Shown piece by piece: positions 1-11,853 of a DNA stretch of 12,929 nucleotides. Both the position numbers and the translations under genes were made by a program. Positions within the stretch are counted from its first letter, which is position 1. Every line of letters begins with the position of its first letter. The notes under the pieces are model-generated. The model saw nothing but the letters and a program-made list of their open reading frames with translations. It had not been told where the DNA came from and made no database searches. The stretch is from Myxococcota bacterium (GTDB lineage Bacteria; Myxococcota; Kuafuiibacteriia; Kuafuiibacteriales; Kuafuiibacteriaceae): positions 1-12,929 of the forward strand of contig DAIQNR010000139.1 in the NCBI GenBank assembly GCA_036788295.1, written 5' to 3'.

Positions 1-1418
1 CGGCGGGTGCGGAGGCGGTATTCGATGGTGGAGCCGGGCCAGAGGGTCGCGTTTCGGCCGTCGGGGCCGCGGTACCAGCTCGTGCAGCCGCCGGTGTTCC
101 ATACCGTCCGGTCGAGCCTGCGCTGGATGGTTTGGTCGTAGGCTCGGGCGACGTCTTCCTCGACTTCGACCCGCTCGAGCCGGCCGGACCGGACCTCCTC
201 GATGAGCGAGAGCACGTAGCCGATCTGGGCTTCGGCCATGAGGAGCACGGACGTGTGCCCGAGCCCGGTGTTCGGTCCGAGCAAAAGATAGAAGTTCGGA
301 AAGCCGGGCACCGTGATCCCGAGGTGGGCGAGCGGTGCGCCAGCCCAGGCCTCTTGTAGGCTCCTGCCGTCTCGGCCTCGAACCTCGAGCGGAAAGAGAA
401 ACTGGGTGACGTCGAATCCGGTGGCAAAGACGAGCGTGTCCGCCGGGCGCTCGACGCCGCCCGCCACCACGCCTCCGGGGACGATGCCCGTGATGGGCTC
501 ATCGACGAGCTCGACGTGGGTCTCGGCGAGCGCCGGGTAGTAGGTGTCGGACAGCAAGATCCGCTTGCAGCCGATTCGATAGTTTGGGGTGAGGCGAGCC
601 CGGAGGCTTTTGTCCTTCACCTGCCGGCGGAGGTGGGCCCGCGCGCGTCGCTCGGCCATCCACCGAAGCGCCGGCGCCGCATACAGAGCGGTCCCCAGAA
701 GCTCGTTTCTCGCGTCGAGAACCACCCGGTGAAAGGCGCGAAGGCACGGGATGCGGCGAAACAGGGTTCTTCGGCGCTCGCCGTAGGGGGCATCGCCGCG
801 GGGAAGGACCCACGGTGGCGTCCGCTGAAAGACGAGCAGCCTCGATGCCGTCCTCGCGAGCTCGGGGATGACTTGAATGGCGCTGGCGCCGGTCCCGATG
901 ACCGCCACGGTGCCGTCGAGCGGGACTTCGCTTCTCCACCGGGCGGTGTGCATGACTTCGCCGGCGAAGGACTCGAGGCCCGGGATGTTCGGCCACTGCG
1001 GGATCCGGAGCGGCCCGGTAGCGGCCACCACATGTCTCGCCGTGAAGGCCCCGCCGCTCGTCTCGAGCCGCCAACCATCGCCTTCCCACGACAGCTTCTC
1101 TACGGTGGTCCCGAGACGGAGGTACTCGGTGATCCCCCTGCGCTTCACCATCGCCTCGAGGTAGGCGAGGATCTCGGGCTGGCGGGCGTAGCGGTGCGAC
1201 CAATCCGGGTTTGGCTCGAAGGACAAGGAGTAGAGGTGGCTCTCGACGTCGCAGGCGCACCCCGGGTACGTGTTCGCGAGCCAGGTGCCGCCTACCCGCC
1301 TCTCCGCTTCGAACACGGCAAAGCGCTTCTCACCGCGCTCGAGGAGCCTCGCCGCCATGGCGAGTCCCGCGAAGCCAGCGCCGATCACCGCGACCTCGAG
1401 CCGGTTCTCGTCCGCCAC
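1..1418 (-). CDS. Flavin-dependent monooxygenase (Baeyer-Villiger/FMO family), partial. The 3' end lies beyond the window start; the start is probably GTG at 1416-1418.
   Basis: Reverse-strand translation reads MADENRLEVAVIGAGFAGLAMAARLLERGEKRFAVFEAERRVGGTWLANTYPGCACDVESHLYSLSFEPNP..., so there is an N-terminal GxGxxG FAD-binding fold. The BVMO fingerprint FxGxxxHxxxW appears as FAGEVMHTARW (around 937-969). A second dinucleotide-binding motif, VAVIGTGASAIQ, follows. GC3 is high throughout the frame, and the ORF is open to nt 1, which explains its absence from the complete-ORF track. An in-frame TAG lies 4 codons upstream of the GTG. Confidence 0.7.
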   Translation of the reverse strand, partial: MADENRLEVAVIGAGFAGLAMAARLLERGEKRFAVFEAERRVGGTWLANTYPGCACDVESHLYSLSFEPNPDWSHRYARQPEILAYLEAMVKRRGITEYLRLGTTVEKLSWEGDGWRLETSGGAFTARHVVAATGPLRIPQWPNIPGLESFAGEVMHTARWRSEVPLDGTVAVIGTGASAIQVIPELARTASRLLVFQRTPPWVLPRGDAPYGERRRTLFRRIPCLRAFHRVVLDARNELLGTALYAAPALRWMAERRARAHLRRQVKDKSLRARLTPNYRIGCKRILLSDTYYPALAETHVELVDEPITGIVPGGVVAGGVERPADTLVFATGFDVTQFLFPLEVRGRDGRSLQEAWAGAPLAHLGITVPGFPNFYLLLGPNTGLGHTSVLLMAEAQIGYVLSLIEEVRSGRLERVEVEEDVARAYDQTIQRRLDRTVWNTGGCTSWYRGPDGRNATLWPGSTIEYRLRTR

Positions 1419-1522
1419 CCTTGGAGGCTACCGTGTGCGCCTCCGCCCCGGTAAGGGCTCGCTCGGTCACCGACGCACGGCAGGGGTCTTCTGCTCTTCC
1501 AAGCCTTTCGGTCCATTTCTTT

Positions 1523-1552
1523 CGACGCGACGCAACCCGACGCGTCGCGTCG
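1523..1552. promoter_or_regulatory. Perfect 11-bp inverted repeat CGACGCGACGC / GCGTCGCGTCG, containing a nested GACGCGTC palindrome, in the divergent intergenic region between the monooxygenase and CoADR-RHD genes. Candidate operator or leader hairpin.
   Basis: Read directly from the sequence: the arms are cgacgcgacgc (1523-1533) and gcgtcgcgtcg (1542-1552), which are exact reverse complements, with an 8-bp spacer. The element lies 42 bp upstream of the ATG at 1594. It is not followed by a T-run, so it is unlikely to be a terminator. Confidence 0.4.
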
Positions 1553-1593
1553 CCGGGCCCGGACCCTCGGCCGCGGCGTTGGCTCCAACGGCC

Positions 1594-3252
1594 ATGGGCA
1601 AACGAATCCTCATCGTGGGCGGGGTGGCCGGCGGCGCATCGGCCGCCGCGCGGGCTCGGCGGCTCGACGAGTCGGCCGAGATCGTGATCTTCGACCGCGG
1701 ACCCCACGTCTCGTTCGCGAACTGCGGCCTCCCGTACTTCGTCGGGGACGTGATTCGGGACGAAGCGTCGCTGCTCGTCGCCACCCCCGAGCTGTTTCGG
1801 GACCGGTTTCGCATCGAGATCCACACCGAGACCGAGGCGGTGGCGATCGATCCGAAAGCCAAGACCATCGAGGTTCGCTCGGTGAAGACCGGCGAGCGGA
1901 GGACCGAACGCTACGACGCGCTCGTCTTGTCCCCCGGTGCCTCCGCCATCCGGCCCCCGGTGCCCGGGGCTGAGCTCCCCGGCATCTTCGTCGTCCGAAC
2001 CATTCCCGACAGCCAGCGCATTCGGAGCTGGCTCACCGACCGCGCCGCAAAGCACGCCGTGGTGGTCGGAGGGGGCTTCATCGGGCTCGAGATGGCCGAG
2101 AACCTCCACCACCGCGGCGTCTCGGTCGCGGTGGTGGAGATGGCGCCGCAGGTGATGCCGCCGCTCGACCCGGAGATGGCGAGCTTTCTTTCCCACCGGC
2201 TCACCGAGCGCGGGGTCGAGCTGCTGTTGGGGGACGCGGTCACCGGCTTTCGGTCTCTCCCTGGGGACCGGCTCGAAGTGTCGACCCGGGCCGGGGCGGC
2301 CATCGAGACCGATCTGGTCATCTTGGCCGTTGGAGTTCGGCCCGAGACCGAGCTCGCTCGGGCGGCGGGCCTCTCGCTTGGGGCCCGGGGCGGGATCGAG
2401 GTGGACGAGCGCATGCGCACCAGCGCCCCCGGGATTTGGGCGGTGGGCGATGCGGTCGAGGTGCGCGAGACGATCACCGGGATCGACATCGTGCTTCCGC
2501 TCGCCGGCCCGGCGAACCGCCAGGGGCGGGTGGCGGCGGCGGACATCTGTGGCCGTCCGGCCCGGTTTCGCGGGGTGCAGGGGACGTCCGTGGTGGGATG
2601 CTTCGGGCTGACCGCGGCGATGACCGGCTGCAGCGAGCGGGCGCTTCGCCGGGCGAACCTCACGAACTACGAGGTCGTCTACCTCCACCCCGGACACCAT
2701 GCCTCGTACTATCCGGGCGCCAAACCCATTCACATGAAGCTCATCTTCGAGGCGAAGAGCGGGAAGATCCTGGGGGCGCAGGCGGTCGGGGAAGAGGGGG
2801 TGGCCCGCCGGATCGACGTCATCAGCACCGCGATCCAGCTCGGCGGCACGGTGTTCGATCTCGAGGAAGCGGAGCTGTGTTATGCGCCCCAGTTCGGGGC
2901 GGCCAAGGACCCGGTCAATGTGGCCGGCATGATCGGCGCCAACGTGCTTCGGGGGGACCTTCCGCTCGCCGATGCCGCGTCCCTGCCCGAGGTGCCCCCC
3001 GGGGTCCTCGTGCTCGACGTGCGGCGCCCGGCCGAAGTGGAGCGAGGCGCGATCCCGGGCGCCATCAACATCCCCCTCGAGTCGCTGCGCGAGCGCGCCG
3101 AAGAGCTGCCGAGAGACGAAGACATCTGGGTGTATTGCCAGGTGGGACAGCGTGGCTATTTTGCCACCCGCCTGCTGGTGCAGCTCGGCTATCGGGCCCA
3201 AAACGTCTCCGGCGGCTTTGCCACCTTCCAGGCCCGCCAAAGTCAGTCGTAG
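1594..3252 (+). CDS. CoA-disulfide reductase / NADH oxidase-family flavoprotein with a C-terminal rhodanese domain (CoADR-RHD; persulfide/polysulfide reductase-like).
   Basis: Translation from ATG 1594: MGKRILIVGGVAGGASAAARA... (FAD GxGxxG). It carries the single redox-active Cys motif SFANCGLPY (Cys codon 1723-1725) typical of Nox/CoADR, and a second NAD(P)-binding motif VVVGGGFIGLEMAE. The C-terminal rhodanese catalytic loop is YCQVGQRG (Cys codon around 3136-3138). The track ORF 1270..3252 is in the same frame, but its first 108 codons are non-coding leader. Confidence 0.9.
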   Translation: MGKRILIVGGVAGGASAAARARRLDESAEIVIFDRGPHVSFANCGLPYFVGDVIRDEASLLVATPELFRDRFRIEIHTETEAVAIDPKAKTIEVRSVKTGERRTERYDALVLSPGASAIRPPVPGAELPGIFVVRTIPDSQRIRSWLTDRAAKHAVVVGGGFIGLEMAENLHHRGVSVAVVEMAPQVMPPLDPEMASFLSHRLTERGVELLLGDAVTGFRSLPGDRLEVSTRAGAAIETDLVILAVGVRPETELARAAGLSLGARGGIEVDERMRTSAPGIWAVGDAVEVRETITGIDIVLPLAGPANRQGRVAAADICGRPARFRGVQGTSVVGCFGLTAAMTGCSERALRRANLTNYEVVYLHPGHHASYYPGAKPIHMKLIFEAKSGKILGAQAVGEEGVARRIDVISTAIQLGGTVFDLEEAELCYAPQFGAAKDPVNVAGMIGANVLRGDLPLADAASLPEVPPGVLVLDVRRPAEVERGAIPGAINIPLESLRERAEELPRDEDIWVYCQVGQRGYFATRLLVQLGYRAQNVSGGFATFQARQSQS

Positions 3253-3256
3253 CGCC

Positions 3257-3511
3257 TCAACCCTCGAGCATCGGGGCGAGCTCACCGGAGCGGTCGAGCC
3301 CCGCGAGCTCGGTGTAGCCCCCGATCGATTGGTCCCCGATGAAGATCTGGGGCACGGTCCGCTGCCCGGTGGCCTGCTGAAGCCAGGTCCTCGTCTTCGT
3401 GTCCCCGTCGACGTCGATCTCTTCGAAGGGGATTCCCCGGTGCTTGAGCAGGGCCCGGGCCCGTTGGCAGTACGGGCACCACTGGGTGAGGTAGACCTTG
3501 ACCGGTTTCAT
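3257..3511 (-). CDS. grxC: Glutaredoxin (Grx3-like, CPYC active site).
   Basis: The 84-aa protein MKPVKVYLTQWCPYCQRARALLKHRGIPFEEIDVDGD...TVPQIFIGDQSIGGYTEL has the CPYC motif, the TVPQIF cis-Pro loop and GG-[D/E] glutathione-binding elements of classical dithiol glutaredoxins. It sits 31 nt downstream of the giant ATPase gene's stop, and its own stop is 4 bp from the convergent CoADR-RHD stop. Confidence 0.88.
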   Translation of the reverse strand: MKPVKVYLTQWCPYCQRARALLKHRGIPFEEIDVDGDTKTRTWLQQATGQRTVPQIFIGDQSIGGYTELAGLDRSGELAPMLEG

Positions 3512-3542
3512 GAACGAGACATACCGCGCGGGGCCCGGCCGT

Positions 3543-6500
3543 TCACCGGTTTTCTGGGGCTGGCTCGAGCGGGAAGAGCGGCGAGACCGGTCCGGCCAGC
3601 GCGTGAACGCGGAGCAAATCGAGCAGCTCGCCGAGCGCCGGCCACAGCCGGCGGGCCTCGTCGTGGCTGGTGGCCGCGGCCCGCGCGAGCGGCCCGAGCG
3701 CCGATTCGAGCCGGGCGAGCGGCGCGGCGAGCGCGTCGTCGAGCCCCAAAGGAGGCTCGCTCGTGACCGACACCGACAGCTTAGGCTCCGACAGCCTGCC
3801 GAGCGCCTGCTCGAGCCGCTCGAGCGCGAGGAGGACGGCGCCGTGCTGGTGGTCCGACGCCCCGTTGGTCGCCTTCTTCGCGGCCGCGCCGATGTCCGAT
3901 AGATGCTCGGTGACCCCGGCGAGGATCGAGGCGATGCGGGCGGCCGGGTCGTCGTCCGCCCCGCCCGCGACCTGGAGGCGGCGAAACTCCCGCTTCATCT
4001 CGCTCCACCGGGAGCTCTCCGCCTCCGACATCCGCCCCCTGAGCTCGGCGAGCTTGAGGAGGTTCGCCTCGGCGCCGGAGGTCAAGGTCTGCGACTCCCC
4101 TCGGTAGTGGTCGTCGATGAGCGACTCGAGCTCCGCATCGTTCATGGCTGGGACCACCTTCTCGGTGAGTTTGTTCATGTTCCGATAAGAACCCTGAAGC
4201 TTGAACGGCGGCTCGGTTCGAAATCTGTCGTCCTGGGAAGCGGAGGCGATGTATTGCTGGTTCACCTCCAGCAGGACCGCCTGCACCTTCGTGAGCCGGC
4301 GAAGGGTCTGCACCGCCTCTTCGGCCTCGACCGAGGACCAGTCCTGCTCGAAGTCGCTGTCCGCGACCTCGCGGCCCCGGGCCCGCTCGATGAAGCGGTG
4401 CAGGTCGGGCAGCGAGCGGGCCGCCATCGGGCCGAGCACCGGGCTCGAGGTGAGCGCGTTTTCGAGGTAGGACAACGCGAAGACCTCCTCCCGGCCGGCG
4501 AGGACGTCGCCGAGGTTGTAGGTGTCGGCGCGGTTTGCGAGCATGTCCGGGATCTGAAACTTGTCTCCAGTCTCCGTGTAGGGGTTGCCTGCCATCACCA
4601 CGCAGAACTTCTTGCCCCGAAGGTCATAGGTCTTCGTCCGGCCCTTCCAGACCCCTTCGACCCGGCGCTGCCCGTCGCACAAGGAGATGAACTTCTGGAG
4701 CAGCTCTGGGTTCGTGTGCTGGATGTCATCGAGGTACAGCATCACGTTGTTGCCCATCTCGAACGCGAGGTTCATCTTCTCCACCTCCTGCCTGGAGGTA
4801 GCGTTTGGTGCCTCGGCCGGGTCGAGCGAGCGCACCCCGTGGCCGAGCGCGGGCCCGTTCACCTTCATGAACACCATGCCCAGCCTGGCCGCGACGTACT
4901 CCATCAGCGTCGTCTTGCCGTAGCCGGGAGGGGAGACGACGAGCAGTAGGCCCATGAGATCGGTCCGCTTGGCGTCGCCGGCGGCGCCGAGCTGCTTCGC
5001 GAGGTTGTCGCCGATGAGCGGCAGGTAGACCTCGTCGATGAGGCGGTTTCGAACGAAGCTGCTCAGCACTTGGGGCACGGCCTCGCTGAGCCGCAGGCGG
5101 GCCTTCGCCGCCTCGAGCACCCGGTGCCGCGCGTGCTGAAACCGCCGAAAGCCAGGGACCCGCTCGGCATGAAACCGGTGAAGGCGCTCTTCGAACTCGT
5201 CGATCGATAGGTTCAGGCCGCCATCGATCCTCGGGTGAAGGCCGAGCAGACCCTCCACCCGGGCCTCGATGAGCGCGCTGCTCGTCTCTCGGTCGATGCG
5301 CCCGGCGAGCACGAGGCCGGCGGCTGCCTCCTCCGCCACCGGGCCAAACGCGAGCCCGAGCTCGGCCTCGTAGGCCTTCACCCAGGCAAACGCGAGGCGA
5401 AACGCAGCCGCTGGGTCGTCCTGCAGCGCGGACAGGTCGGCTTCGAGCGCCCTCCAGCTCCCGTCGTGGTGGAGCCGCTCGAGCAGCCCGGCCCGGAGCT
5501 TCTCCGCCGCTTCGCTCTCGACGAAATGGGGATGGGCGACCGCCAACTCTTCGGCCAGGTACCGGGCGCAGGTGCGGACCGACGCTCCGAACGGGGCGAC
5601 GAAATCGGCCATCGCGGCGGCGAGGTCGCCTTCGAGTCCGTCGTCGGCGGATTGGCCGAAGAACGTCTTCAGCCGCCCGAGGCTCTCGGCCCGGCGATGC
5701 AAGCGGGCCTTCGCTTCGTCGTCCCCGGGCTTCGCCCACCACAGCAGCGCCGCCGCTCGGGCGGTGGGAGGGTGGCGGAGCCGCCCGGCGGAGGAGGACA
5801 AGACGAGCAGCTTCTCCAATATTTGCGCAGCGTCGTGATCGTGAACCCCTCGCTCGTAGCCTTCGTCGTACCGGTCCTGGGCAAAACGCCGCACCGCGGC
5901 GGCGAGCGGAGCCCCCCGGGCGCCGAGCACCTCCCGGTCGATGTCCCCTCTTTCCGCCGCCTCCCGCACCGAAAAGGCGAGGTACTCCCCCCGGTAGACT
6001 TCTTTTGACTCCGATACGAGCGGTTCGGCGAAGAACGCGGACAAGGACAGCAGCTCGGGATCGTCCACCGCTTCGAAGAAGTCGGTGCCGGCGACGTGCA
6101 GCGCGAGCCCGTCCCCCCGCGGAACCATGGTGAGATCGAAGGGCTGGGTGTGGACGCGAAACCGGTGCCGCCCCAGGCGGATGAGCGCCGAGTCCCCGTC
6201 GAAGAGGTCCCGCTTGTCCCGGAGATTTCGAAGCGCGGTCTGCTTCGCGGTGAGCAGGCGGGCGCCGAGGTCTTCGGCCTTCACGCCGTCGTCGAGCTCG
6301 AGCAGGCGCTCCCGGATCCCAGACAGGCGGAGGATCATGGGATCGGAGGCGAAGTAGGCGTTGAGCCCGTCCTCGTCGGCGAAGCTGCGGGACCTGCGCT
6401 CGGCTCCATCGAGGATCCGGGCCCCCGCCTCGAACAAGTGGGCGGAGCGGCGCTGGCGCTCGTCGAGCAGCTGCTGCTTCCTGGCCCCGAAGGCCTCGCC

Positions 6501-8798
6501 GATCTCCTCCCGCTTCGTGGTGAGATCGGCGAGCAGCTCGTCCACGCCGGCGAACCGGGCTTCGAGGTCCTCGAGCTGGCCGAGCAGCCGCCCCAGCTGC
6601 TCGTCGCAGGCCTCCGGGGTGTCGGCGAGCGCCACCGCGCTCTCGACGCTCTGGCCGAGCAAGCGAAACTGCGCCGCGAACTCCGATCGGGCTTCGGCCG
6701 AGGTGAGCGTTCGCCGCCGCTGCTCGAGCGTGGCGCGGGCCCGGTTCAGGGCGGCGTAGACCTCCGAGATGCTCTCGAGCAGGCCCGTCCGCTCGCTCGG
6801 ATCTTCGACCTCGAGGCCCGCGACCACCTCCGACAAGAGCCCGAGACCCTCGGCGAGCCGCTCCGCCTCTGCCGTCAGCGGCAAAAGCTCTGGGCTCTTT
6901 TCGACCCGCGACGCCTCGCCGAGCAGCCGCTGGGCCGCCTCGGCCACCGGCGCGAGCGCGGCTCCGGTACCGAGGAAAAAGACGCAACCGTCGTTGACGT
7001 GAGCCGAGGCCTGCACGACCTCGGCCTCGAGCTCGTCGAGCGCGGGCCGGTCGATGAGCCGAACGTCCCGGAGCGTGATGAGATGTCCCCGCCACCGCCG
7101 GAGCTCGGACATCGCCAAAAGAAATGGCTCGAGCTGCTGCCACTCGCTCGGGCGGTGCTCCCTCAGCAGCCGGCCCTGCTCCTTTTTGGCCTCGGCGAGC
7201 GCCTGCCCGGCCCGGGCTCTCAGCGACAGGACCTTCTCGAACTCGTCGATGACGAGCTCGGTGGCCCGGCGCACGGCGAGGATCGGCTCGGCGAGCGCAC
7301 CGGCCTCCTCGCTCGCGAGCCAGTGGTAGGTGCCGACCGCGCGGCTCGCCGCGCCGATGAGATCCTCGAAGGTCCGCCTGCTCGGCGCGGGGGTGTTCGC
7401 GAGGCGCACGATCTCGAGTCCGTCCGATATCCCCCGGACCAGCTCGGCGTTGCCGATGCGCTCGAGAAAGCCTCCGCCGGTGGGCAAGCTCGCCGCGTGC
7501 TCTTCCGACATGAACGGGGTTTGCCAAATCTGCACCGGGTGGACCCGGCTCGGCTCGCCCCGGGGCTGCCTGGTCAAGAGCAGCTTTCCGTCGGGAAACA
7601 AGGTGAACCCGTGGCCTTCGAGCGGGGCCGCCACCTCCTTTCGAATGAGATTGTAGGGCAAGAGCAGGTACCGGCCGTCCTCCTGGTGGTAGAAGACATA
7701 CAGCACGTCCTCGCCGTTTGGCGCGCGGACCACCCGCTCGAAGACCAGGTCGTCGATCTCGGTGTCGAAGACCTTCAGCTCCCCCGTCTCGAGATAGTAG
7801 CCGCCGGGGAACACGATCCCGTGGTCTTCGGGGAGGAGCAGGCAGGCTTGCCCGACCGCGTCCACCCGGCGCACATCCCTGGTGCGGGTATTGTAGATGA
7901 GGTAGCGCCGCTGCTTCTCTTGAAAGGGGAGGATCTCGAGGAGGATGAGCGCGCCGACCTTGGCGTAGGCGTACTCCGCGTCATCGAGGCTCTGCCGGGG
8001 GTCGTCCACCGGCTCCTGATAGATGCCGAGCCCGTCCTCGGTGTTGTCCTCCACCTTGACGGTGAGATCGCCGCCGACGGTCTCCACGAAGACGGTGTCG
8101 AGGATGTTGACGTGGGGGTGGCGGCCCCGGCGCTGATCCTCCCTCGTGGTCTTCGTGAACGAAAAGGGGTGAGAAGGAGGGAATTGGTAGTCCTCCTCGG
8201 CCCGGTTGTCGATGTAGGCCACTCCGCCGCCGGCGGACAGCCCCCACCGAAACCCACGCACGTCGGTGAGCCGCTGCCCGGTTTGGAACATCGCGAGCAG
8301 GCGGCCTTGCTGCACGGTGACCCGCACGAGCCGCGCGCCCTGGTAGAAGCGGTGCAGCTCGTTGAAATCGCTCAGAAAACGGGGGTCGTCGAACAACCCG
8401 GGGATCGCCTCTGGGCCGAGACCCTCGAGGCTTGGACCTTCACCCAAGCGGTGCAGGGCGAACACATCCCCGAGCGTCGTCTCCGTCTTGAGGCCCAAGA
8501 ACACGTTGTACGCAAAGACGAGCACGTCCCCCAGGCTCACCAGATCCCTGGGGATGCAGTTGTTGTCGGTGCGCACCCGCTCGTTGGCGATCACCTCGAG
8601 CGGCGTGCCCCCGAAGGTCTCGATCCGGCGCCGGTTGAGCGCCTCCGCGCGCTCACCGAGCCCGGTCGCGGCTTCCTTCAGCCGGCGCAGCAGCACCTCG
8701 TAGCTTCCGCCTTCGAGGGTCTCGGCCGGCTTTTCATCGTGCTTCGCCTTCGTCATGCCGCTCTCTTTTTCGGGTTGCGCCGGTCTTTTGGCGGCCAT
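3543..8798 (-). CDS. Giant (1751 aa) multidomain protein. Residues 60-440 form a beta-rich N-terminal domain. Residues 450-1250 form a long alpha-helical/coiled-coil region. The C-terminal part is a MoxR/AAA_5-type AAA+ ATPase domain. Function unknown.
   Basis: A single uninterrupted frame of 5256 nt with strong GC3 bias. The ATG at 8796-8798 lies 7 nt after the flotillin stop. The C-terminal region carries Walker A SPPGYGKTT (around 4908-4931) and Walker B VMLYLDDIQHTNPELLQKF, which parallels the MoxR hhhhDEINRAppkvQsaLL segment. AGNPYTETGDKFQIPDMLANRA parallels the MoxR sensor-1/arginine region ATQNP...LPEALLDRF. The N-terminal and central domains have no motif I can name. Confidence 0.8.
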   Translation of the reverse strand: MAAKRPAQPEKESGMTKAKHDEKPAETLEGGSYEVLLRRLKEAATGLGERAEALNRRRIETFGGTPLEVIANERVRTDNNCIPRDLVSLGDVLVFAYNVFLGLKTETTLGDVFALHRLGEGPSLEGLGPEAIPGLFDDPRFLSDFNELHRFYQGARLVRVTVQQGRLLAMFQTGQRLTDVRGFRWGLSAGGGVAYIDNRAEEDYQFPPSHPFSFTKTTREDQRRGRHPHVNILDTVFVETVGGDLTVKVEDNTEDGLGIYQEPVDDPRQSLDDAEYAYAKVGALILLEILPFQEKQRRYLIYNTRTRDVRRVDAVGQACLLLPEDHGIVFPGGYYLETGELKVFDTEIDDLVFERVVRAPNGEDVLYVFYHQEDGRYLLLPYNLIRKEVAAPLEGHGFTLFPDGKLLLTRQPRGEPSRVHPVQIWQTPFMSEEHAASLPTGGGFLERIGNAELVRGISDGLEIVRLANTPAPSRRTFEDLIGAASRAVGTYHWLASEEAGALAEPILAVRRATELVIDEFEKVLSLRARAGQALAEAKKEQGRLLREHRPSEWQQLEPFLLAMSELRRWRGHLITLRDVRLIDRPALDELEAEVVQASAHVNDGCVFFLGTGAALAPVAEAAQRLLGEASRVEKSPELLPLTAEAERLAEGLGLLSEVVAGLEVEDPSERTGLLESISEVYAALNRARATLEQRRRTLTSAEARSEFAAQFRLLGQSVESAVALADTPEACDEQLGRLLGQLEDLEARFAGVDELLADLTTKREEIGEAFGARKQQLLDERQRRSAHLFEAGARILDGAERRSRSFADEDGLNAYFASDPMILRLSGIRERLLELDDGVKAEDLGARLLTAKQTALRNLRDKRDLFDGDSALIRLGRHRFRVHTQPFDLTMVPRGDGLALHVAGTDFFEAVDDPELLSLSAFFAEPLVSESKEVYRGEYLAFSVREAAERGDIDREVLGARGAPLAAAVRRFAQDRYDEGYERGVHDHDAAQILEKLLVLSSSAGRLRHPPTARAAALLWWAKPGDDEAKARLHRRAESLGRLKTFFGQSADDGLEGDLAAAMADFVAPFGASVRTCARYLAEELAVAHPHFVESEAAEKLRAGLLERLHHDGSWRALEADLSALQDDPAAAFRLAFAWVKAYEAELGLAFGPVAEEAAAGLVLAGRIDRETSSALIEARVEGLLGLHPRIDGGLNLSIDEFEERLHRFHAERVPGFRRFQHARHRVLEAAKARLRLSEAVPQVLSSFVRNRLIDEVYLPLIGDNLAKQLGAAGDAKRTDLMGLLLVVSPPGYGKTTLMEYVAARLGMVFMKVNGPALGHGVRSLDPAEAPNATSRQEVEKMNLAFEMGNNVMLYLDDIQHTNPELLQKFISLCDGQRRVEGVWKGRTKTYDLRGKKFCVVMAGNPYTETGDKFQIPDMLANRADTYNLGDVLAGREEVFALSYLENALTSSPVLGPMAARSLPDLHRFIERARGREVADSDFEQDWSSVEAEEAVQTLRRLTKVQAVLLEVNQQYIASASQDDRFRTEPPFKLQGSYRNMNKLTEKVVPAMNDAELESLIDDHYRGESQTLTSGAEANLLKLAELRGRMSEAESSRWSEMKREFRRLQVAGGADDDPAARIASILAGVTEHLSDIGAAAKKATNGASDHQHGAVLLALERLEQALGRLSEPKLSVSVTSEPPLGLDDALAAPLARLESALGPLARAAATSHDEARRLWPALGELLDLLRVHALAGPVSPLFPLEPAPENR
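4480..4990 (-). other. AAA+ ATPase domain (MoxR / AAA_5 dynein-related subfamily) inside the giant ORF.
   Basis: P-loop GYGKTT codons lie at 4908-4925. The Walker B DD codons lie at 4725-4730 (LYLDDIQH). The sensor-1-like AGNPY and IPDMLANRA motifs lie downstream. The order and spacing of the motifs match MoxR/CbbQ/McrB-type AAA_5 domains. Confidence 0.7.
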
Positions 8799-8805
8799 GC
8801 TGGGA

Positions 8806-10923
8806 TTAGTTGACCGGGCCGCGGTTCGTATCGAGCCCCAGCTCGTTGGCTCGGTCGGCCAGCGCCTCGAGCTTCACGCGGGTGGGGGCGTCGGCGCCGG
8901 CCATCAGCCGCGCGATGAGCGTGCTGACGCTCAAGTCCCGAACCCCGGCCGCGCCCAGGCTGCCCACCGCGTCGATCAGCTCCGCGGGCAGGCTCCGGCC
9001 GCCGTTGAGGTAGTCGCCAAACAGGGACTTCAGGTGGGTCGAGCCGTCGAGCGCGCCGTCCACCGAGCGGCCGACCGAGACCGCCTGAACGAACCGGTCG
9101 AAGAACGCGCCGTCGCCACCCACGATCTGGATGTTCGCGGCCGAGAACGCCTCCTTGAGGATCGCCGCTCGCTCCTTCGCGATGCGCTCCTCGGCCGTGA
9201 TCCGGGCCAGCGACAGGGCCCGGTCGTGCTCGAGCCGCAGGCGGTACTCCTCGTGGCTTCGGCTCGCTTCGTCGAGCGCGGCCATCGCGCGGGCCTTCTC
9301 CGCGATGCCCGACGCTTCGGCGGCGAGCTTCTTCTCGATGCCGACCGCCTCCGCGAGCGCGGTGCGCTCGAGCACGGTCGCGTCGGCGATGCCCCGCTTC
9401 TCCACCGCGGCGGCGTCCGCTTCCTTGACCCGAACCTCGGCCATGCCTCGCTCCTCGTGGCCGCGGGCCTCCGCCTCGAGCTGCTCCCGGGTGACCCGGG
9501 CCTTCGCCGCCCCTTCCTTCTCGAGGGCCAGCGCGTCCGCTTCCCGCACCCGCGCCTTCGCGAGGCCGTCCGCCGCCGCCTCGGCCTGCCGGCCCTCGGC
9601 CAGACGCGCCTTCGCCTTCGCGTCCCGGTCCGCCGCCTCGAGGTCGGCTTCGGCGAGAGTCAGCCGCTCCTTGGCCGCGTGCCGAGCCGCCTGCTCCTTG
9701 GCTTCCGCCGCGCGGGTGGTCGCGATGAGCTTCTCCTCGGCTTCGGCCGAGGCGGCGGTGACGAGCACCTCCTTCTCCCGCTTCGCGGTCATGATCGCCC
9801 GAAGGTCCGCGATTCGCTCCTCTTCCTCGGCGACGTTCTTCTCGACCGCGATCCGGTCCCGGACCACGTCGGCGATGTTCTTCTTCTCGACCTCGATCTC
9901 CCGCTCTTTGGCGATCCGCTGCAGCTCGGTCTCCCGCTCCCTCGAGATCGCCTCGAGCATGCGATCCTTCTCGACCCGCTCGGTCTCCACCGCGATCGCC
10001 CGCTCCCTTGCCTTCTGCGCGATCTCGATCTGCCGGCGCTTGGCTTCCTGCCCGACCTCTACCTCCTGCTCGGCCGCGATCTTCGCGAGCTGCGCCTTTT
10101 GGTACTCCTCCGCCTGCACCCGGGCCGTCTCCGCCTCCTCGCGGGCCTTGCGCACCGCGATCTCCCTCGCTTGCACCGCTCGGGCGTCCTTCTCCTGCCG
10201 CTCGAGGCTCAGCACCGCCGCCTCCGCCTCCACGTTCTGCTTCGTGACCTCCTTTCGCTCGTTCTGCCGAAGCAGGTTCGTCTGGATGTTCTGGAGCGTG
10301 GTCAGCTCGGTGATCTTTCGGATGCCCTGGGCGTCGAGGATGTTCTCCGGGTCCAGGGTCTCGATCGGCGTCTGCTCGAGAAAGTCGATGGCGGCGTCGT
10401 CGAGCACGTAGCCGTTCAGATCGGTCCCGATGTTGCGGATGATTTGGTCCTTGAAGTCGTGGCGCTGGGTGTACAGCGCCTCGAAATCGAGCTGCTTTCC
10501 CACCGTCTTCAGCGCTTCGGAGAACTTCGCCTGAAAGAGCTGCTCGAGCGTGGCTTGGTCGGACGCGCGGTTGCACCCAACCTGTTGAGCGACCCGGAGC
10601 ACGTCTTCTTTCGTCTTGTTCACCTTCACGAAGAACGTGACCTTGATGTCGGCGCGAATGTTGTCGCGGCAGATGAGGCCCTCTTTCCCGCGGCGGTCGA
10701 GCTCGATCGTCTTCAAAGAGATGTCCATCGTCTCCGCCCGATGGATGACCGGGAGCACGAGACCTCCGGTGAATTTGACCTCGGGGTCGCCCTGCATGCG
10801 GTTGATGATGAGCGCGCGGCCCTGGTCCACCTTCCGGTAGAAGAGCTTGAGGATCATCGCCATCCCGATGAGAATGGCGACGAGGGCGCCCGCGCCCGTT
10901 CCTACGAAGTACAGTATATCCAT
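8806..10923 (-). CDS. Flotillin-family SPFH/band-7 protein (FloT/YqiK-like), 705 aa, with an extended Ala/Glu-rich coiled coil.
   Basis: It has an N-terminal TM helix (ILYFVGTGAGALVAILIGMAMIL) followed by an SPFH domain (GRALIINRMQ...GLVLPVIHRAETMDISLKTIELDRRGKEGLICRDNIRADIKVTFFVKV...) and then about 350 residues of EA-repeat coiled coil (AEAKEQAARHAAKERLTLAEADLEAADRDAKAKARLAEGRQAEAA...), which is characteristic of bacterial flotillins. A credible RBS (aaggaa) lies about 8 nt upstream of the ATG at 10921-10923. Confidence 0.9.
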   Translation of the reverse strand: MDILYFVGTGAGALVAILIGMAMILKLFYRKVDQGRALIINRMQGDPEVKFTGGLVLPVIHRAETMDISLKTIELDRRGKEGLICRDNIRADIKVTFFVKVNKTKEDVLRVAQQVGCNRASDQATLEQLFQAKFSEALKTVGKQLDFEALYTQRHDFKDQIIRNIGTDLNGYVLDDAAIDFLEQTPIETLDPENILDAQGIRKITELTTLQNIQTNLLRQNERKEVTKQNVEAEAAVLSLERQEKDARAVQAREIAVRKAREEAETARVQAEEYQKAQLAKIAAEQEVEVGQEAKRRQIEIAQKARERAIAVETERVEKDRMLEAISRERETELQRIAKEREIEVEKKNIADVVRDRIAVEKNVAEEEERIADLRAIMTAKREKEVLVTAASAEAEEKLIATTRAAEAKEQAARHAAKERLTLAEADLEAADRDAKAKARLAEGRQAEAAADGLAKARVREADALALEKEGAAKARVTREQLEAEARGHEERGMAEVRVKEADAAAVEKRGIADATVLERTALAEAVGIEKKLAAEASGIAEKARAMAALDEASRSHEEYRLRLEHDRALSLARITAEERIAKERAAILKEAFSAANIQIVGGDGAFFDRFVQAVSVGRSVDGALDGSTHLKSLFGDYLNGGRSLPAELIDAVGSLGAAGVRDLSVSTLIARLMAGADAPTRVKLEALADRANELGLDTNRGPVN

Positions 10924-10989: not shown

Positions 10990-11628
10990 TCAGATGTCCT
11001 CGGGTGTGGGTTCGCGCTCGAGCGGCTCGACCCGAAAGGCGTCGAGCTTCTCGTCGAACGCGATGATGAGGGCGTGGTCGCCGCGGCGCAGACGCCCGGG
11101 CTCGGCCCGAACCTGAAGGATCCGCCAGTCGCCGCCTTCCTCGAGCCGGGCTTGCCCAAAACCAAGGTCCACCTCCCCGGTGCTGATCCGGCAGCTGCGG
11201 CCGATGAGGTCGCTCTGGGCTTCGGCCGACGCACCCGAAAACAGGGGGCCGAGCCGAGCGGCGATCATGTGGAGGGCAGGCGCGGTGACCGCGAGGCTGC
11301 CGACGCCGACGAGGCCGCCGAGCGCGAGGCCCATCGGACCGTCCTGGGGGCCCAAGGACCGCATCGCCAGGTAGGAAGTCGCCCACGCGAACAGCGACCA
11401 CAAGCTGAGGAGGATCGACGCCGGAACCTTGCCGAGCCCGAGCCAGGCGAGCAGGGCGGCGCCGGTTCCGAGCCCCTCGAGCAGCCCGCTTGCCCCCTCG
11501 ACCTCATCGTGAAGGCCCATCCCGGTCAGGCCGACGACGACCCAGTACAGGACGGCGATGGCGAGCAGAACGGAGAACACTCCGGTGGGAAAACGGGTGG
11601 CATGATCGAAAAACGCATCCATGGGCAA
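10990..11628 (-). CDS. NfeD/YqiJ-like polytopic membrane protein with a C-terminal soluble beta-domain (flotillin-associated partner).
   Basis: About 130 N-terminal residues are hydrophobic, giving roughly four predicted TM helices (VFSVLLAIAVLYWVVVGLTGMGL; GAALLAWLGLG; ILLSLWSLFAWATSYLAM; LALGGLVGVGSLAVTAPALHMIAARLG). These are followed by a beta-rich tail (CRISTGEVDLGFGQARLEEGGDWRILQVRAEPGRLRRGDHALIIAFDEKLDAFRVEP) consistent with an NfeD OB-fold. The gene sits immediately upstream of the flotillin gene, matching the yqiJ-yqiK / yuaF-floT arrangement. The track start at 11628 is a TTG, so the true start may instead be the ATG at 11620-11622. Confidence 0.6.
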   Translation of the reverse strand: MPMDAFFDHATRFPTGVFSVLLAIAVLYWVVVGLTGMGLHDEVEGASGLLEGLGTGAALLAWLGLGKVPASILLSLWSLFAWATSYLAMRSLGPQDGPMGLALGGLVGVGSLAVTAPALHMIAARLGPLFSGASAEAQSDLIGRSCRISTGEVDLGFGQARLEEGGDWRILQVRAEPGRLRRGDHALIIAFDEKLDAFRVEPLEREPTPEDI

Positions 11629-11853
11629 GTCCGGTCAGCGGCACAAAAGAGGCGACTTCGGCGAGGTCCCCGGGCTCGGCGCGGCCGCCGAAGCGACCGG
11701 GTGACGACGACTCCGAATTCGCTTCGACAATACCTTGGGTAGCCACCGGAGTTCGCACCGTCACCCTGGTTTTCTCGTCGGCCTGCGTTTTCTCTCTCGC
11801 GGCCGATTCGACCGGTGGTTGACGCCGGCCAGGACGGAGCGCACCGACCTCTC
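11629..11853. promoter_or_regulatory. Divergent intergenic region (225 bp) between the NfeD/YqiJ-like operon (-) and the HEAT-repeat gene (+). It presumably contains both promoters.
   Basis: This is the only appreciably T-rich, lower-GC stretch in the window (ctggttttctcgtcggcctgcgttttctctctcgcgg, around 11765-11801). A TTGACG hexamer lies at 11819-11824, but there is no convincing -10 element, so exact promoter elements cannot be called. Confidence 0.3.

What the first reader, a model, noticed from the sequence alone, without database searches (positions are those of the whole stretch)
4480..4990. Intact MoxR/AAA_5-type catalytic motifs at the C-terminus of a coiled-coil giant protein
Three motifs are conserved and correctly spaced relative to MoxR (hhhhDEINRA...ATQNP...LPEAxLDRF): Walker A PPGYGKTT, Walker B LYLDDIQH followed by NPELLQKF, and sensor-1-like AGNPY with IPDMLANRA. 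The domain is therefore probably an active ATPase rather than a degenerate remnant. A single AAA_5 module placed after a very long helical region is reminiscent of midasin- or dynein-like mechanoenzymes, but on a bacterial scale. This resemblance is inference.
Basis: partly seen in the sequence, partly recalled or inferred. Interest (0 to 1): 0.55.

Follow-up and report, generated by a model that had tools for sequence, protein, structure and literature searches.

The report
Flotillin-operon AAA+ ATPase (BacE/DUF3686 family)
The flagged stretch is a real, very strongly conserved AAA+ ATPase domain near the end of a 1,750-residue cytoplasmic protein; the protein belongs to a widespread, already catalogued but biochemically untested family that is almost always encoded next to a membrane flotillin gene.

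Summary
All quoted motifs lie on the minus strand inside 4480-4990, in ORF 8798..3543 (residues 1270-1440). Walker A K1295, Walker B D1357-D1358, sensor-1 N1405 and Arg-finger R1423 are invariant in 120 homologues and 80 species.

- Sequence profiles do not place it in MoxR proper: AAA_3 falls below threshold, and RavA is the weakest but one of a seven-protein panel.
- No helix-2 hairpin is seen and no VWA partner is encoded nearby.
- The Walker B catalytic Glu is invariably Asp (DDIQH, as in DnaA), so "intact" overstates it.
- The protein is not simply a coiled coil. It is an N-terminal beta-propeller (Pfam DUF3686), then about 430 helical residues, an alpha domain, one AAA+ module and a tail.

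The gene sits in a conserved YqiJ/NfeD-flotillin-ATPase operon (63 of 66 loci). The Pseudomonas aeruginosa member is PA3728/BacE. The database name "DNA repair ATPase" has no support. My best guess, which is inferred, is an ATP-dependent remodeller of flotillin/PspA membrane assemblies. It is a new member of a known family.

The parts
3543..8798 (-). Gene for the 1751-codon (probably 1737-residue) cytoplasmic DUF3686-DUF7902-AAA+ protein. The likely true start is Met15 at nt 8756.
   Evidence: ORF and translation. GC3 0.89. Pfam DUF3686, DUF7902, AAA_5 and AAA. The identical NCBI protein P0001 is 1737 aa. A GAGAG Shine-Dalgarno-like sequence precedes Met15. No hydrophobic segment.
7323..8660 (-). 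N-terminal helix plus beta-propeller domain (Pfam DUF3686, residues 47-492).
   Evidence: Pfam E 2.5e-189. The AlphaFold model is all-beta over residues ~68-426. Foldseek matches 6- and 7-bladed propellers with probability 1.0.
6219..7511 (-). Long helical (coiled-coil or spectrin-like) region, residues ~430-860. It includes Pfam DUF7902 (residues 614-696, nt 6711-6959).
   Evidence: DSSP of the model shows helices of up to 58 residues. DUF7902 E 7e-24.
5124..6146 (-). Small beta unit plus a mostly alpha-helical domain preceding the ATPase (residues ~885-1225). It contains the invariant EGYERGxHDxD motif.
   Evidence: Model secondary structure. Invariant columns.
4509..5045 (-). AAA+ alpha/beta core (residues ~1252-1430): alpha0 helix and strands beta1 to beta5.
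4908..4931 (-). Walker A / P-loop, PPGYGKTT (K1295, T1296).
   Evidence: invariant.
4716..4739 (-). Walker B, LYLDDIQH. D1357 is predicted to coordinate Mg. D1358 sits at the position of the usual catalytic Glu.
   Evidence: The end of strand beta3 in the model. Aligned to RavA D114-E115. DDIQH is universal in the family. E. coli DnaA has LLIDDIQF.
4605..4667 (-). Pre-sensor-1 beta-hairpin, RRVEGVWKGRTKTYDLRGKKF (residues 1378-1398), with near-invariant E1381, G1382, W1384, Y1391, D1392, R1394 and G1395.
   Evidence: Two strands directly before the sensor-1 strand in the model. Conservation.
4578..4592 (-). Sensor 1, AGNPY (N1405 at the end of strand beta4).
4527..4553 (-). Helix alpha4 with the candidate arginine finger, IPDMLANRA (R1423).
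   Evidence: R1423 lies at the end of alpha4, just before beta5. Invariant.
3999..4490 (-). Helical lid (residues ~1437-1600). It carries an extra, poorly conserved insertion plus a long helix before the sensor-2 helix. Sensor-2 motif GSYRN is at residues 1536-1540 (nt 4179-4193; R1539).
   Evidence: Model. Conservation profile. R1539 and G1536 are invariant in 80 species.
3546..3998 (-). Poorly conserved helical C-terminal tail (residues ~1601-1751).
   Evidence: Column identity 0.2-0.47. Helices in the model up to residue 1640.
8806..10923 (-). Upstream operon partner: a flotillin-like SPFH/Band-7 protein of 705 residues, with an N-terminal membrane segment, an SPFH domain and a long Glu/Ala/Arg-rich helical region. 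Its stop codon lies 7 nt before the ATPase ORF.
   Evidence: Band_7 E 5e-13 on the first 230 residues. One hydrophobic segment. Conserved upstream on the same strand in 63 of 66 loci.
10990..11628 (-). First operon gene: a YqiJ/YuaF (NfeD-like) three-TM membrane protein of 212 residues.
   Evidence: Three hydrophobic segments. Weak YqiJ_N match, E 0.52. A homologue is found upstream of the flotillin gene in 58 loci. Literature description of this triad.

Best explanation
Shown:
- The region encodes the single AAA+ ATPase module of a ~1740-residue soluble protein of the DUF3686/BacE family.
- Its architecture is N-terminal helix, beta-propeller, ~430 helical residues, alpha domain, AAA+ core with a pre-sensor-1 hairpin, lid with a sensor-2 Arg, and tail.
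- It is the last gene of a conserved operon: YqiJ/NfeD-like membrane protein, flotillin (SPFH), ATPase.
- In Pseudomonas the operon also carries a CesT-like DUF2170 protein and PspA upstream, and a phospholipase-D-like gene downstream (bacABCDEF; BacE = PA3728).

Inferred:
- Like its closest structural relatives CbbQ and NorQ, the module assembles into a homo-hexameric ring that binds ATP.
- The invariant pre-sensor-1 hairpin and the loop after beta2 face the pore and engage a protein substrate.
- The propeller and helical stalk dock the ring onto the cytoplasmic face of the flotillin/NfeD assembly, and onto PspA polymers where these are encoded.
- ATP turnover remodels or disassembles those membrane scaffolds. 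This would be a bacterial counterpart of the Vps4/ESCRT-III and FtsH/HflKC pairings.
- Because the Walker B catalytic Glu is always Asp (DDIQH, as in DnaA), basal hydrolysis is probably slow and stimulated by a partner or substrate.
For: Identity and architecture:
- Pfam DUF3686 (E 2.5e-189), DUF7902, AAA_5 and AAA.
- Models with pLDDT 85 and 84.
- Propeller matches.

Functional ATP site: Walker A Lys, Walker B Asp-Asp, sensor 1, Arg finger and sensor 2 are invariant in 120 clusters and 80 species. DDIQH is found in 141 of 144 evaluable 50%-identity representatives. The module is the best-conserved part of the protein.

Partner:
- Flotillin is upstream on the same strand in 63 of 66 loci, adjacent in 61. 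A YqiJ-like gene is present in 58. These loci span Myxococcota, Actinomycetota, Gammaproteobacteria and Acidobacteriota.
- The ATPase has no TM segment, whereas the flotillin has one and the YqiJ-like protein three.
- Pseudomonas loci add DUF2170 and PspA upstream and a PLD-like or rhomboid gene downstream. The P. aeruginosa locus matches PA3732-PA3724 gene for gene.
- RT-PCR shows bacA-F are co-transcribed, and BacB-F rise 6- to 13-fold together in a bacA mutant (PMC10948618).

DD precedent: E. coli DnaA has LLIDDIQF.
Against: - No experiment on any family member shows ATP binding, oligomerisation, or contact with flotillin, YqiJ or PspA. The mechanism rests on gene neighbourhood and analogy.
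- The Asp at the catalytic-Glu position could mean very slow hydrolysis, which would favour a switch over a motor.
- The clade assignment is unsettled. Sequence profiles favour RuvB, Lon and classical AAA over MoxR. No helix-2 insert is seen.
- Three of 66 loci lack an upstream flotillin gene.
- Many flotillin-YqiJ operons, such as those of E. coli and B. subtilis, have no such ATPase (PMC2636767). Flotillin therefore does not need it.
Confidence: 0.5

Rival explanations
1. It is an ATP-bound switch or scaffold rather than a motor. The invariant Asp-Asp Walker B makes hydrolysis very slow, as in DnaA or ORC-type AAA+ proteins. Nucleotide state would then control assembly of the large propeller/helical protein on the flotillin platform, without processive remodelling.
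For: D1358 replaces the catalytic Glu in every member examined. DnaA, which by established knowledge is a slow, partner-stimulated ATPase, has the same DDIQ motif. There is no aromatic-hydrophobic-Gly pore loop after beta2; the sequence there is NGPALGHGV.
Against: The Arg finger, sensor 1 and sensor 2, which serve hydrolysis and inter-subunit communication, are all invariant. An invariant, aromatic-bearing pre-sensor-1 hairpin (W1384, Y1391) is typical of substrate-engaging rings. The closest structures, CbbQ and NorQ, are active remodellers.
Confidence: 0.25
2. It is a dynein- or midasin-like mechanoenzyme. The AAA ring would drive a lever-like movement of the long helical region to exert force on a distant target.
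Against: There is one AAA module per polypeptide, not six concatenated ones. The dynein matches to the helical part have TM-scores of 0.04-0.11 and rmsd near 50 A, so they reflect generic long helices. A 340-residue alpha/beta region separates the helices from the AAA core.
Confidence: 0.1
3. It is a canonical MoxR-type chaperone working with a VWA-domain partner, as in RavA-ViaA, CbbQ-CbbO and NorQ-NorD.
For: The best structural matches are CbbQ and NorQ. Pfam AAA_5 passes its threshold. Walker A to Walker B spacing is identical to RavA.
Against: No VWA domain was found in this protein or in any neighbouring gene. None appeared among the neighbour-gene clusters that I scanned with Pfam. AAA_3 scores 12.2 bits against a cut-off of 27. 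RavA is among the weakest of seven E. coli AAA+ proteins in HHalign.
Confidence: 0.05
4. It is a DNA repair ATPase, as the database name and the Pfam DUF3686 description say.
For: Source names read 'DNA repair ATPase'. Pfam describes DUF3686 as 'ATPase involved in DNA repair'. RuvB appears among the Foldseek and HHalign matches.
Against: The RuvB similarity is confined to the generic AAA+ core, and mostly to the P-loop stretch. No DNA-binding or nuclease domain was detected. The conserved neighbours are membrane proteins (flotillin, YqiJ, PspA, PLD and rhomboid). No paper containing 'DUF3686' exists in the searched library. RecJ lies nearby in P. aeruginosa only, and outside the bacA-F transcript.
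Confidence: 0.03

Closest known systems
Pfam DUF3686/DUF7902/AAA family, which includes Pseudomonas aeruginosa BacE (PA3728 / PA14_16190) of the bacABCDEF 'biofilm-associated cluster'
   Same: Same full-length architecture: DUF3686, DUF7902, then AAA_5/AAA, at about 1750 residues. It is 47-50% identical to Pseudomonas members. The gene has the same position, directly after the YqiJ-like and flotillin genes. The catalytic residues are identical, including DDIQH.
   Different: The window shows only the short three-gene form. No DUF2170 or PspA gene could be recognised upstream in the 1.3 kb available. No phospholipase-D-like gene follows; a convergent oxidoreductase gene does instead. BacE itself has no biochemical characterisation, only co-transcription and co-regulation data.
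CbbQ and NorQ (AAA_5 / MoxR-group AAA+ remodellers; PDB 6l1q, 9qh4)
   Different: Sequence identity is 14-16%. There is no VWA partner. No helix-2 beta-hairpin appears in the model. Walker B is DD, whereas CbbQ and NorQ have DE (my recollection, not checked here). The module is fused to about 1250 N-terminal residues (propeller plus helices), whereas CbbQ and NorQ are about 260-residue stand-alone proteins.
RuvB / HCLR-clade AAA+ (RuvB, Lon, ClpX)
   Same: The best sequence-profile similarity lies over the alpha0-P-loop-beta2 stretch. RuvB is interleaved with NorQ at the top of the Foldseek list. Both have a pre-sensor-1 hairpin without an obvious helix-2 insert, and a sensor-2 Arg.
SPFH-AAA+ and ESCRT-III-AAA+ pairings (HflK/C-FtsH; Vps4-Snf7/ESCRT-III)
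   Same: This is a functional analogy only. An AAA+ ATPase is genetically coupled to an SPFH scaffold, and in some lineages to the ESCRT-III-like PspA.
   Different: The ATPase has no protease domain and no TM anchor, unlike FtsH. It has no MIT domain and is not of the classical clade, unlike Vps4. No physical interaction has been shown.

Membership tests
AAA+ superfamily | Walker A GxxxxGK[ST], Walker B hhhhD[DE], a sensor-1 polar residue at the end of beta4, an Arg finger at the end of alpha4, and a helical lid. | tested here: met
AAA+ superfamily | Catalytic Glu immediately after the Walker B Asp. | tested here: not met
   D1358 aligns with RavA E115. It is Asp in all homologues. DnaA offers a precedent.
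Pfam AAA_5 (dynein-related subfamily: CbbQ, NorQ, McrB, midasin, dynein) | Profile score at or above the gathering threshold of 22 bits. | tested here: met
   27.5 bits on the whole protein and 30.7 on the module alone. However, PF00004 AAA also passes, with 27.5 and 29.7 bits against a cut-off of 21.2.
Pfam AAA_5 (dynein-related subfamily: CbbQ, NorQ, McrB, midasin, dynein) | Closest solved structures belong to the group. | tested here: met
MoxR family proper (RavA/MoxR, Pfam AAA_3) | AAA_3 profile at or above 27 bits, or RavA as the best sequence-profile match. | tested here: not met
   AAA_3 scores 12.2 bits, E 0.17. HHalign scores are RavA 32, against RuvB 65, FtsH 53, ClpX 52, Lon 52 and McrB 44.
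MoxR family proper (RavA/MoxR, Pfam AAA_3) | An adjacent or co-occurring VWA-domain partner protein. | tested here: not met
   No VWA domain in the protein or in window neighbours. None in the conserved neighbour clusters scanned.
Helix-2-insert / pre-sensor-2-insert AAA+ clade (MoxR, chelatase, MCM, dynein, midasin) | A beta-hairpin inserted in helix alpha2. | tested here: not met
   In the model, the beta2-alpha2 connection (residues 1315-1332, pLDDT above 90) is a short helix plus an ordered loop, with no strands.
Helix-2-insert / pre-sensor-2-insert AAA+ clade (MoxR, chelatase, MCM, dynein, midasin) | Pre-sensor-1 beta-hairpin. | tested here: met
   Strands 1379-1384 and 1387-1392 lie directly before the sensor-1 strand 1398-1404.
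Helix-2-insert / pre-sensor-2-insert AAA+ clade (MoxR, chelatase, MCM, dynein, midasin) | A helical insertion before the sensor-2 helix that repositions the lid. | tested here: inconclusive
   About 110 residues and four helices lie between beta5 and the sensor-2 helix. They include a poorly conserved loop and a 32-residue helix. Lid placement could not be measured without coordinates.
Dynein / midasin mechanoenzymes | Six concatenated AAA modules in one polypeptide, with a linker or tail. | tested here: not met
   A single AAA module at residues ~1250-1600. Among the 150 best family representatives listed, the module is single and lies at about 1200-1650 in the full-length proteins.
DUF3686 / BacE flotillin-operon ATPase family | DUF3686 propeller, DUF7902 and a C-terminal AAA module in a protein of about 1600-1900 residues. 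| tested here: met
   All 120 best homologues carry the same Pfam set.
DUF3686 / BacE flotillin-operon ATPase family | Encoded directly downstream of YqiJ/NfeD-like and flotillin (SPFH) genes. | tested here: met
   In the window the genes are 11628..10990, 10923..8806 and 8798..3543, all on the minus strand. Flotillin is upstream in 63 of 66 loci and a YqiJ-like gene in 58.
DUF3686 / BacE flotillin-operon ATPase family | Extended bac/PSP form: DUF2170 (CesT-like) and PspA upstream, PLD-like gene downstream. | tested here: not met
   These genes are present in the roughly 12 Pseudomonas-type loci where they cluster, and in P. aeruginosa. They are not recognisable in the window. Region 11743-12927 has no Pfam match, and the downstream gene is a convergent CoA-disulfide-reductase-like gene. 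The window ends at 12929, so genes further upstream cannot be seen.
'DNA repair ATPase' (database name) | A DNA-binding or nuclease domain, or a DNA-repair gene context. | tested here: not met
   None in Pfam, NCBIfam or PADLOC scans. The conserved neighbours are membrane proteins.
Known anti-phage defence ATPases (PADLOC) | A significant match to a defence-system model. | tested here: not met
   The best match is E 0.0068 over 30 P-loop residues. In addition, the P. aeruginosa cluster holds 3222 member sequences, so the protein is very widespread in that species.

The most novel reading that the evidence does not exclude
This family is the missing energy source for bacterial flotillin and PspA (ESCRT-III-like) membrane scaffolds. 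It would be a hexameric, propeller-tethered AAA+ ring that disassembles or recycles flotillin cages and PspA polymers. Its unusual Asp-Asp Walker B would keep it idle until the scaffold or membrane damage triggers hydrolysis. That would make it a bacterial functional analogue of Vps4, evolved from a different AAA+ lineage.
Probability: 0.3. Interest if true: 0.7.

Novelty: new member of a known kind. Interest (0 to 1): 0.35.

Why it matters
Bacterial flotillins and PspA/Vipp1 polymers organise and repair membranes. How their assemblies are taken apart is unclear: PMC11237479 states that it is unknown how PspA homologues without an associated AAA ATPase regulate assembly.

This ATPase family is large. 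It has more than 6000 clusters at 90% identity. It includes a protein found in thousands of P. aeruginosa sequences whose operon affects biofilm and virulence. Most databases call it a 'DNA repair ATPase', probably wrongly.

The value of this check is modest but concrete:
- The catalytic site is under strict selection.
- The Walker B is a DnaA-like DD variant.
- The conserved partner is flotillin.

Together these define clear mutants and binding partners to test. The window's own gene adds nothing beyond another family member.

Tried and rejected
1. Sequence searches against solved structures, with the single protein and with the family profile, matched only the P-loop/beta2 stretch of NVL, p97 and RuvB at E about 1e-3 to 1e-2. 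They could not assign a clade.
2. NCBIfam and PADLOC gave nothing significant, so I dropped a defence-system reading.
3. The full-length flotillin gave no Pfam hit even at E 10. Only the first 230 residues scanned alone gave Band_7. The Glu/Ala/Arg-rich repeat region probably tripped the composition filter.
4. Literature searches for 'DUF3686' (0 papers) and for flotillin plus MoxR (2 irrelevant papers) found nothing. The P. aeruginosa SPFH paper and the Arc-pathway paper do not mention this protein. The supplement of PMC11237479 held nothing on it.
5. HHalign against seven single E. coli AAA+ sequences is dominated by the P-loop region and has low power, because the targets are single sequences. 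I use it only to show that RavA is not preferred.
6. Foldseek matches between the helical N-terminal region and dynein heavy chains were rejected as generic long-helix matches (TM 0.04-0.11).
7. No terminator-like or promoter-like site was found in 3200-3700, between the convergent genes.
Lid orientation, pore geometry and active-site distances could therefore not be measured.
Full report
**1. What is at the coordinates**

The window is about 69% G+C. Codon-position GC analysis identifies the real genes. Three lie on the minus strand as one operon:
- 11628..10990, 212 residues
- 10923..8806, 705 residues
- 8798..3543, 1751 codons

Downstream is a convergent plus-strand gene at 1270..3252, a pyridine-nucleotide-disulfide oxidoreductase fused to rhodanese. 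A partial flavin-monooxygenase-like gene lies on the minus strand at 3..1427.

The finding's coordinates 4480-4990 correspond to residues 1270-1440 of the large ORF.
- PPGYGKTT: residues 1290-1297
- LYLDDIQH: residues 1354-1361
- NPELLQKF: residues 1363-1370
- AGNPY: residues 1403-1407
- IPDMLANRA: residues 1416-1424

The true start is probably Met15 at nt 8756. It is preceded by a GAGAG Shine-Dalgarno-like sequence, and the NCBI protein identical to the window's is 1737 residues long.

**2. Is it more than chance, and is the site 'intact'?**

Pfam places the large protein in DUF3686 (residues 47-492, E 2.5e-189), DUF7902 (614-696) and, over residues 1285-1408, both AAA_5 and AAA at 27.5 bits each. 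Both AAA scores are above their gathering thresholds.

I aligned 120 homologue clusters that are 52-65% identical overall. The ATPase module is by far the most conserved part, at 77-96% column identity for residues 1251-1450 and 69-86% for 1501-1575. K1295, T1296, D1357, D1358, N1405 and R1423 are invariant.

Those genomes include Myxococcota, Actinomycetota, Gammaproteobacteria and Acidobacteriota.

An AlphaFold model of residues 1225-1640 (pLDDT 85) puts each motif in its canonical place:
- The Walker B Asp ends strand beta3.
- N1405 ends beta4, the sensor-1 position.
- R1423 ends helix alpha4 just before beta5, the Arg-finger position.
- R1539 begins a lid helix, the sensor-2 position.

Walker A Lys to Walker B Asp is 62 residues in both proteins.

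One correction matters. HHalign aligns D1357-D1358 with RavA D114-E115, so the catalytic glutamate is an aspartate here. This is a family signature, not an accident. DDIQH occurs in all 120 clusters, all 80 species, and 141 of 144 evaluable 50%-identity representatives. E. coli DnaA carries the same LLIDDIQF. By established knowledge DnaA binds ATP tightly and hydrolyses it slowly unless stimulated. My inference is that the site binds ATP and is catalytically competent but probably throttled.

**3. Which kind of AAA+?**

Structure:
- Foldseek also puts NorQ first, and CbbQ has the best TM-score. RuvB is interleaved among the top hits.
- The model shows a two-stranded pre-sensor-1 hairpin (residues 1379-1392) with near-invariant W1384 and Y1391.
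- There is no beta-hairpin in the beta2-alpha2 connection.
- There is an extra loop plus a long helix before the sensor-2 helix.

Sequence gives a less clear answer:
- The MoxR-proper Pfam model AAA_3 fails, at 12.2 bits against a cut-off of 27.
- The family profile matches PDB sequences only over the P-loop/beta2 stretch of NVL, RuvB and p97.
- In HHalign against seven E. coli AAA+ proteins, RavA scores 32. RuvB scores 65, FtsH 53, ClpX 52, Lon 52 and McrB 44.

My conclusion is that this is a divergent AAA+ lineage of the pre-sensor-1-hairpin superclade. It is structurally nearest to the AAA_5 proteins CbbQ and NorQ, but it is not a demonstrable member of MoxR proper.

The module is also very distinctive. 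Among 1.84 billion representatives only 923 reach E of 0.001 or better. In the full-length proteins among the 150 best listed, it lies at about 1200-1650 of 1600-1900 residues.

**4. The rest of the protein**

A model of residues 26-1225 (pLDDT 84) shows, in order:
- an N-terminal helix
- an all-beta domain over residues ~68-426
- about 430 residues of long helices, up to 58 residues each
- a small beta unit
- a mostly helical domain leading into the ATPase

Foldseek matches the beta domain to 6- and 7-bladed propellers with probability 1.0. 'Coiled-coil giant' is therefore only partly right.

The protein has no hydrophobic segment and is presumably cytoplasmic. It carries one AAA module, so any ring must be a homo-oligomer as in CbbQ or NorQ. 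It cannot be a single-chain ring as in dynein or midasin. The dynein matches to the helical part are not meaningful, with TM-scores of 0.04-0.11.

**5. Genomic context**

The gene immediately upstream encodes a flotillin-like SPFH protein. It has one N-terminal membrane segment, a Band_7 domain (E 5e-13) and a long Glu/Ala/Arg-rich helical region. The gene before it encodes a three-TM protein weakly matching YqiJ_N.

Of the 80 related loci, 66 have enough upstream sequence to judge. Flotillin lies upstream on the same strand in 63, adjacent in 61. A YqiJ-like gene precedes it in 58.

Clustering of neighbouring ORFs finds no other universally conserved neighbour. About a dozen Pseudomonas-type loci add DUF2170 and PspA upstream and a PLD-like or rhomboid gene downstream.

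**6. What is already known**

PMC11237479 describes exactly this operon. [quoted passage not shown] Sometimes a CesT/Tir-PspA pair and a phospholipase D are added. The paper notes that abbreviated forms are widespread. PMC2636767 establishes YqiJ/YuaF as NfeD homologues paired with flotillin-like SPFH proteins.

The P. aeruginosa family member is P0295, 1746 residues, in a cluster of 3222 sequences. Its locus reads DUF2170 - PspA - 213 aa - 688 aa - DUF3686/AAA - PLD - YaeQ - RecJ - an M4 peptidase that I take to be LasB. That order matches PA3732 down to PA3724. The PA numbers for recJ and lasB are from my own knowledge, but PA3732-PA3729 as the bac cluster is from the paper. The ATPase is therefore PA3728.

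PA3728 corresponds to PA14_16190, renamed BacE. BacE is co-transcribed with bacA-D and bacF, and rises 8.9-fold in a bacA mutant (PMC10948618). PA3728 is listed simply as 'ATPase' among genes recurrently mutated in cystic-fibrosis isolates (PMC8190622).

I found no biochemical or structural study of any member. The name 'DNA repair ATPase' has no visible basis. There is no DNA-related domain, and the conserved neighbours are membrane proteins.

**7. Most likely mechanism**

What is shown:
- A strictly conserved nucleotide site with a full set of AAA+ sensors.
- A conserved pre-sensor-1 hairpin.
- A cytoplasmic location.
- Obligatory genetic coupling to a flotillin/NfeD pair.

What is inferred: the module forms a hexameric ring. 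The propeller and helical stalk dock it to the cytoplasmic side of the flotillin assembly, and to PspA where present. ATP turnover, slow unless triggered because of the Asp-Asp Walker B, remodels or dismantles those scaffolds. This is analogous to Vps4 with ESCRT-III or FtsH with HflK/C.

The main rival is a nucleotide-gated switch or scaffold with little turnover. The dynein-like lever, canonical MoxR-VWA and DNA-repair readings are weaker, for the reasons given under the rival explanations.

**8. Verdict**

It is wrong or overstated on four points: an intact Walker B, membership of MoxR, the coiled-coil description, and the dynein/midasin resemblance.

The protein is one more member of a large, already catalogued and computationally described family, whose function remains untested. 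Interest is moderate to low for this window. The family as a whole is a reasonable experimental target.

Noticed in passing
window 5799-5873 (minus strand; residues 976-1000): The alpha-helical domain upstream of the ATPase contains a strongly conserved block, RYDEGYERGvHDhDAAqILEKLL. G980, Y981, R983, G984, H986, D987 and D989 are invariant in 82 sequences. It could be a metal or ligand site or an interface. No Pfam family covers it.
   Followed up: no
window 7989-8123 (minus strand; residues 226-270): The most conserved stretch of the beta-propeller is RHPHVNILDTVFVETVGGDLTVKVEDNTEDGLGIYQEPVDD, at 75-82% column identity against about 50% in the rest of the propeller. It is a candidate partner-binding surface.
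   Followed up: no
window 8756 vs 8798 (minus strand): The longest ORF starts at ATG 8798, only 7 nt after the flotillin stop and with no Shine-Dalgarno sequence. Met15 (ATG 8756) follows a GAGAG motif and matches the 1737-residue NCBI protein. The first 25 residues are unconserved.
   Followed up: partly
window 8806-10923 (minus strand): The full-length flotillin-like protein gave no Pfam hit even at E 10, yet its first 230 residues alone match Band_7 at E 5e-13. The long Glu/Ala/Arg/Lys-rich helical region apparently suppresses the hit through composition filters. Automated annotation may therefore miss this gene's identity.
   Followed up: yes
window 11743-12927 (both strands): Long ORFs are open on both strands, 395 aa on plus and 388 aa on minus. 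Their codon-position GC is similar and ambiguous, and neither has a Pfam match. The minus-strand product is extremely Arg-rich and unprotein-like. The plus-strand product looks more protein-like, being Ala/Leu/Arg-rich and possibly a helical repeat. What lies upstream of the operon is unresolved.
   Followed up: partly
window 1270-3252 (plus strand): This is a pyridine-nucleotide-disulfide oxidoreductase (CoA-disulfide-reductase-like) fused to a C-terminal rhodanese domain. It is convergent with the ATPase gene. The listed GTG start gives an unprotein-like N-terminal extension of about 110 residues that overlaps the neighbouring gene. The real start is probably the Met of MGKRILIVGG, near nt 1597.
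   Followed up: no
window 3-1427 (minus strand): A partial flavin-containing monooxygenase-like gene (FMO-like and Pyr_redox_3 domains) runs off the left end of the window.
   Followed up: no
L024 (Sorangium sp. So ce1000); L022, L032, L033: These are exceptions to the operon rule. In L024 about 4.2 kb separates the flotillin gene from the ATPase gene. In L022, L032 and L033 no flotillin homologue is detectable in the several kb upstream. These might be insertions, rearrangements or second paralogous copies.
   Followed up: no
L057 11530-12081; L071 11520-12797; L082 12260-12952: In Pseudomonas-type loci the gene after the ATPase is a rhomboid-domain protein or a phospholipase-D-like protein (BacF in P. 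aeruginosa). Both are membrane- or lipid-directed enzymes, which fits a membrane role for the operon.
   Followed up: partly
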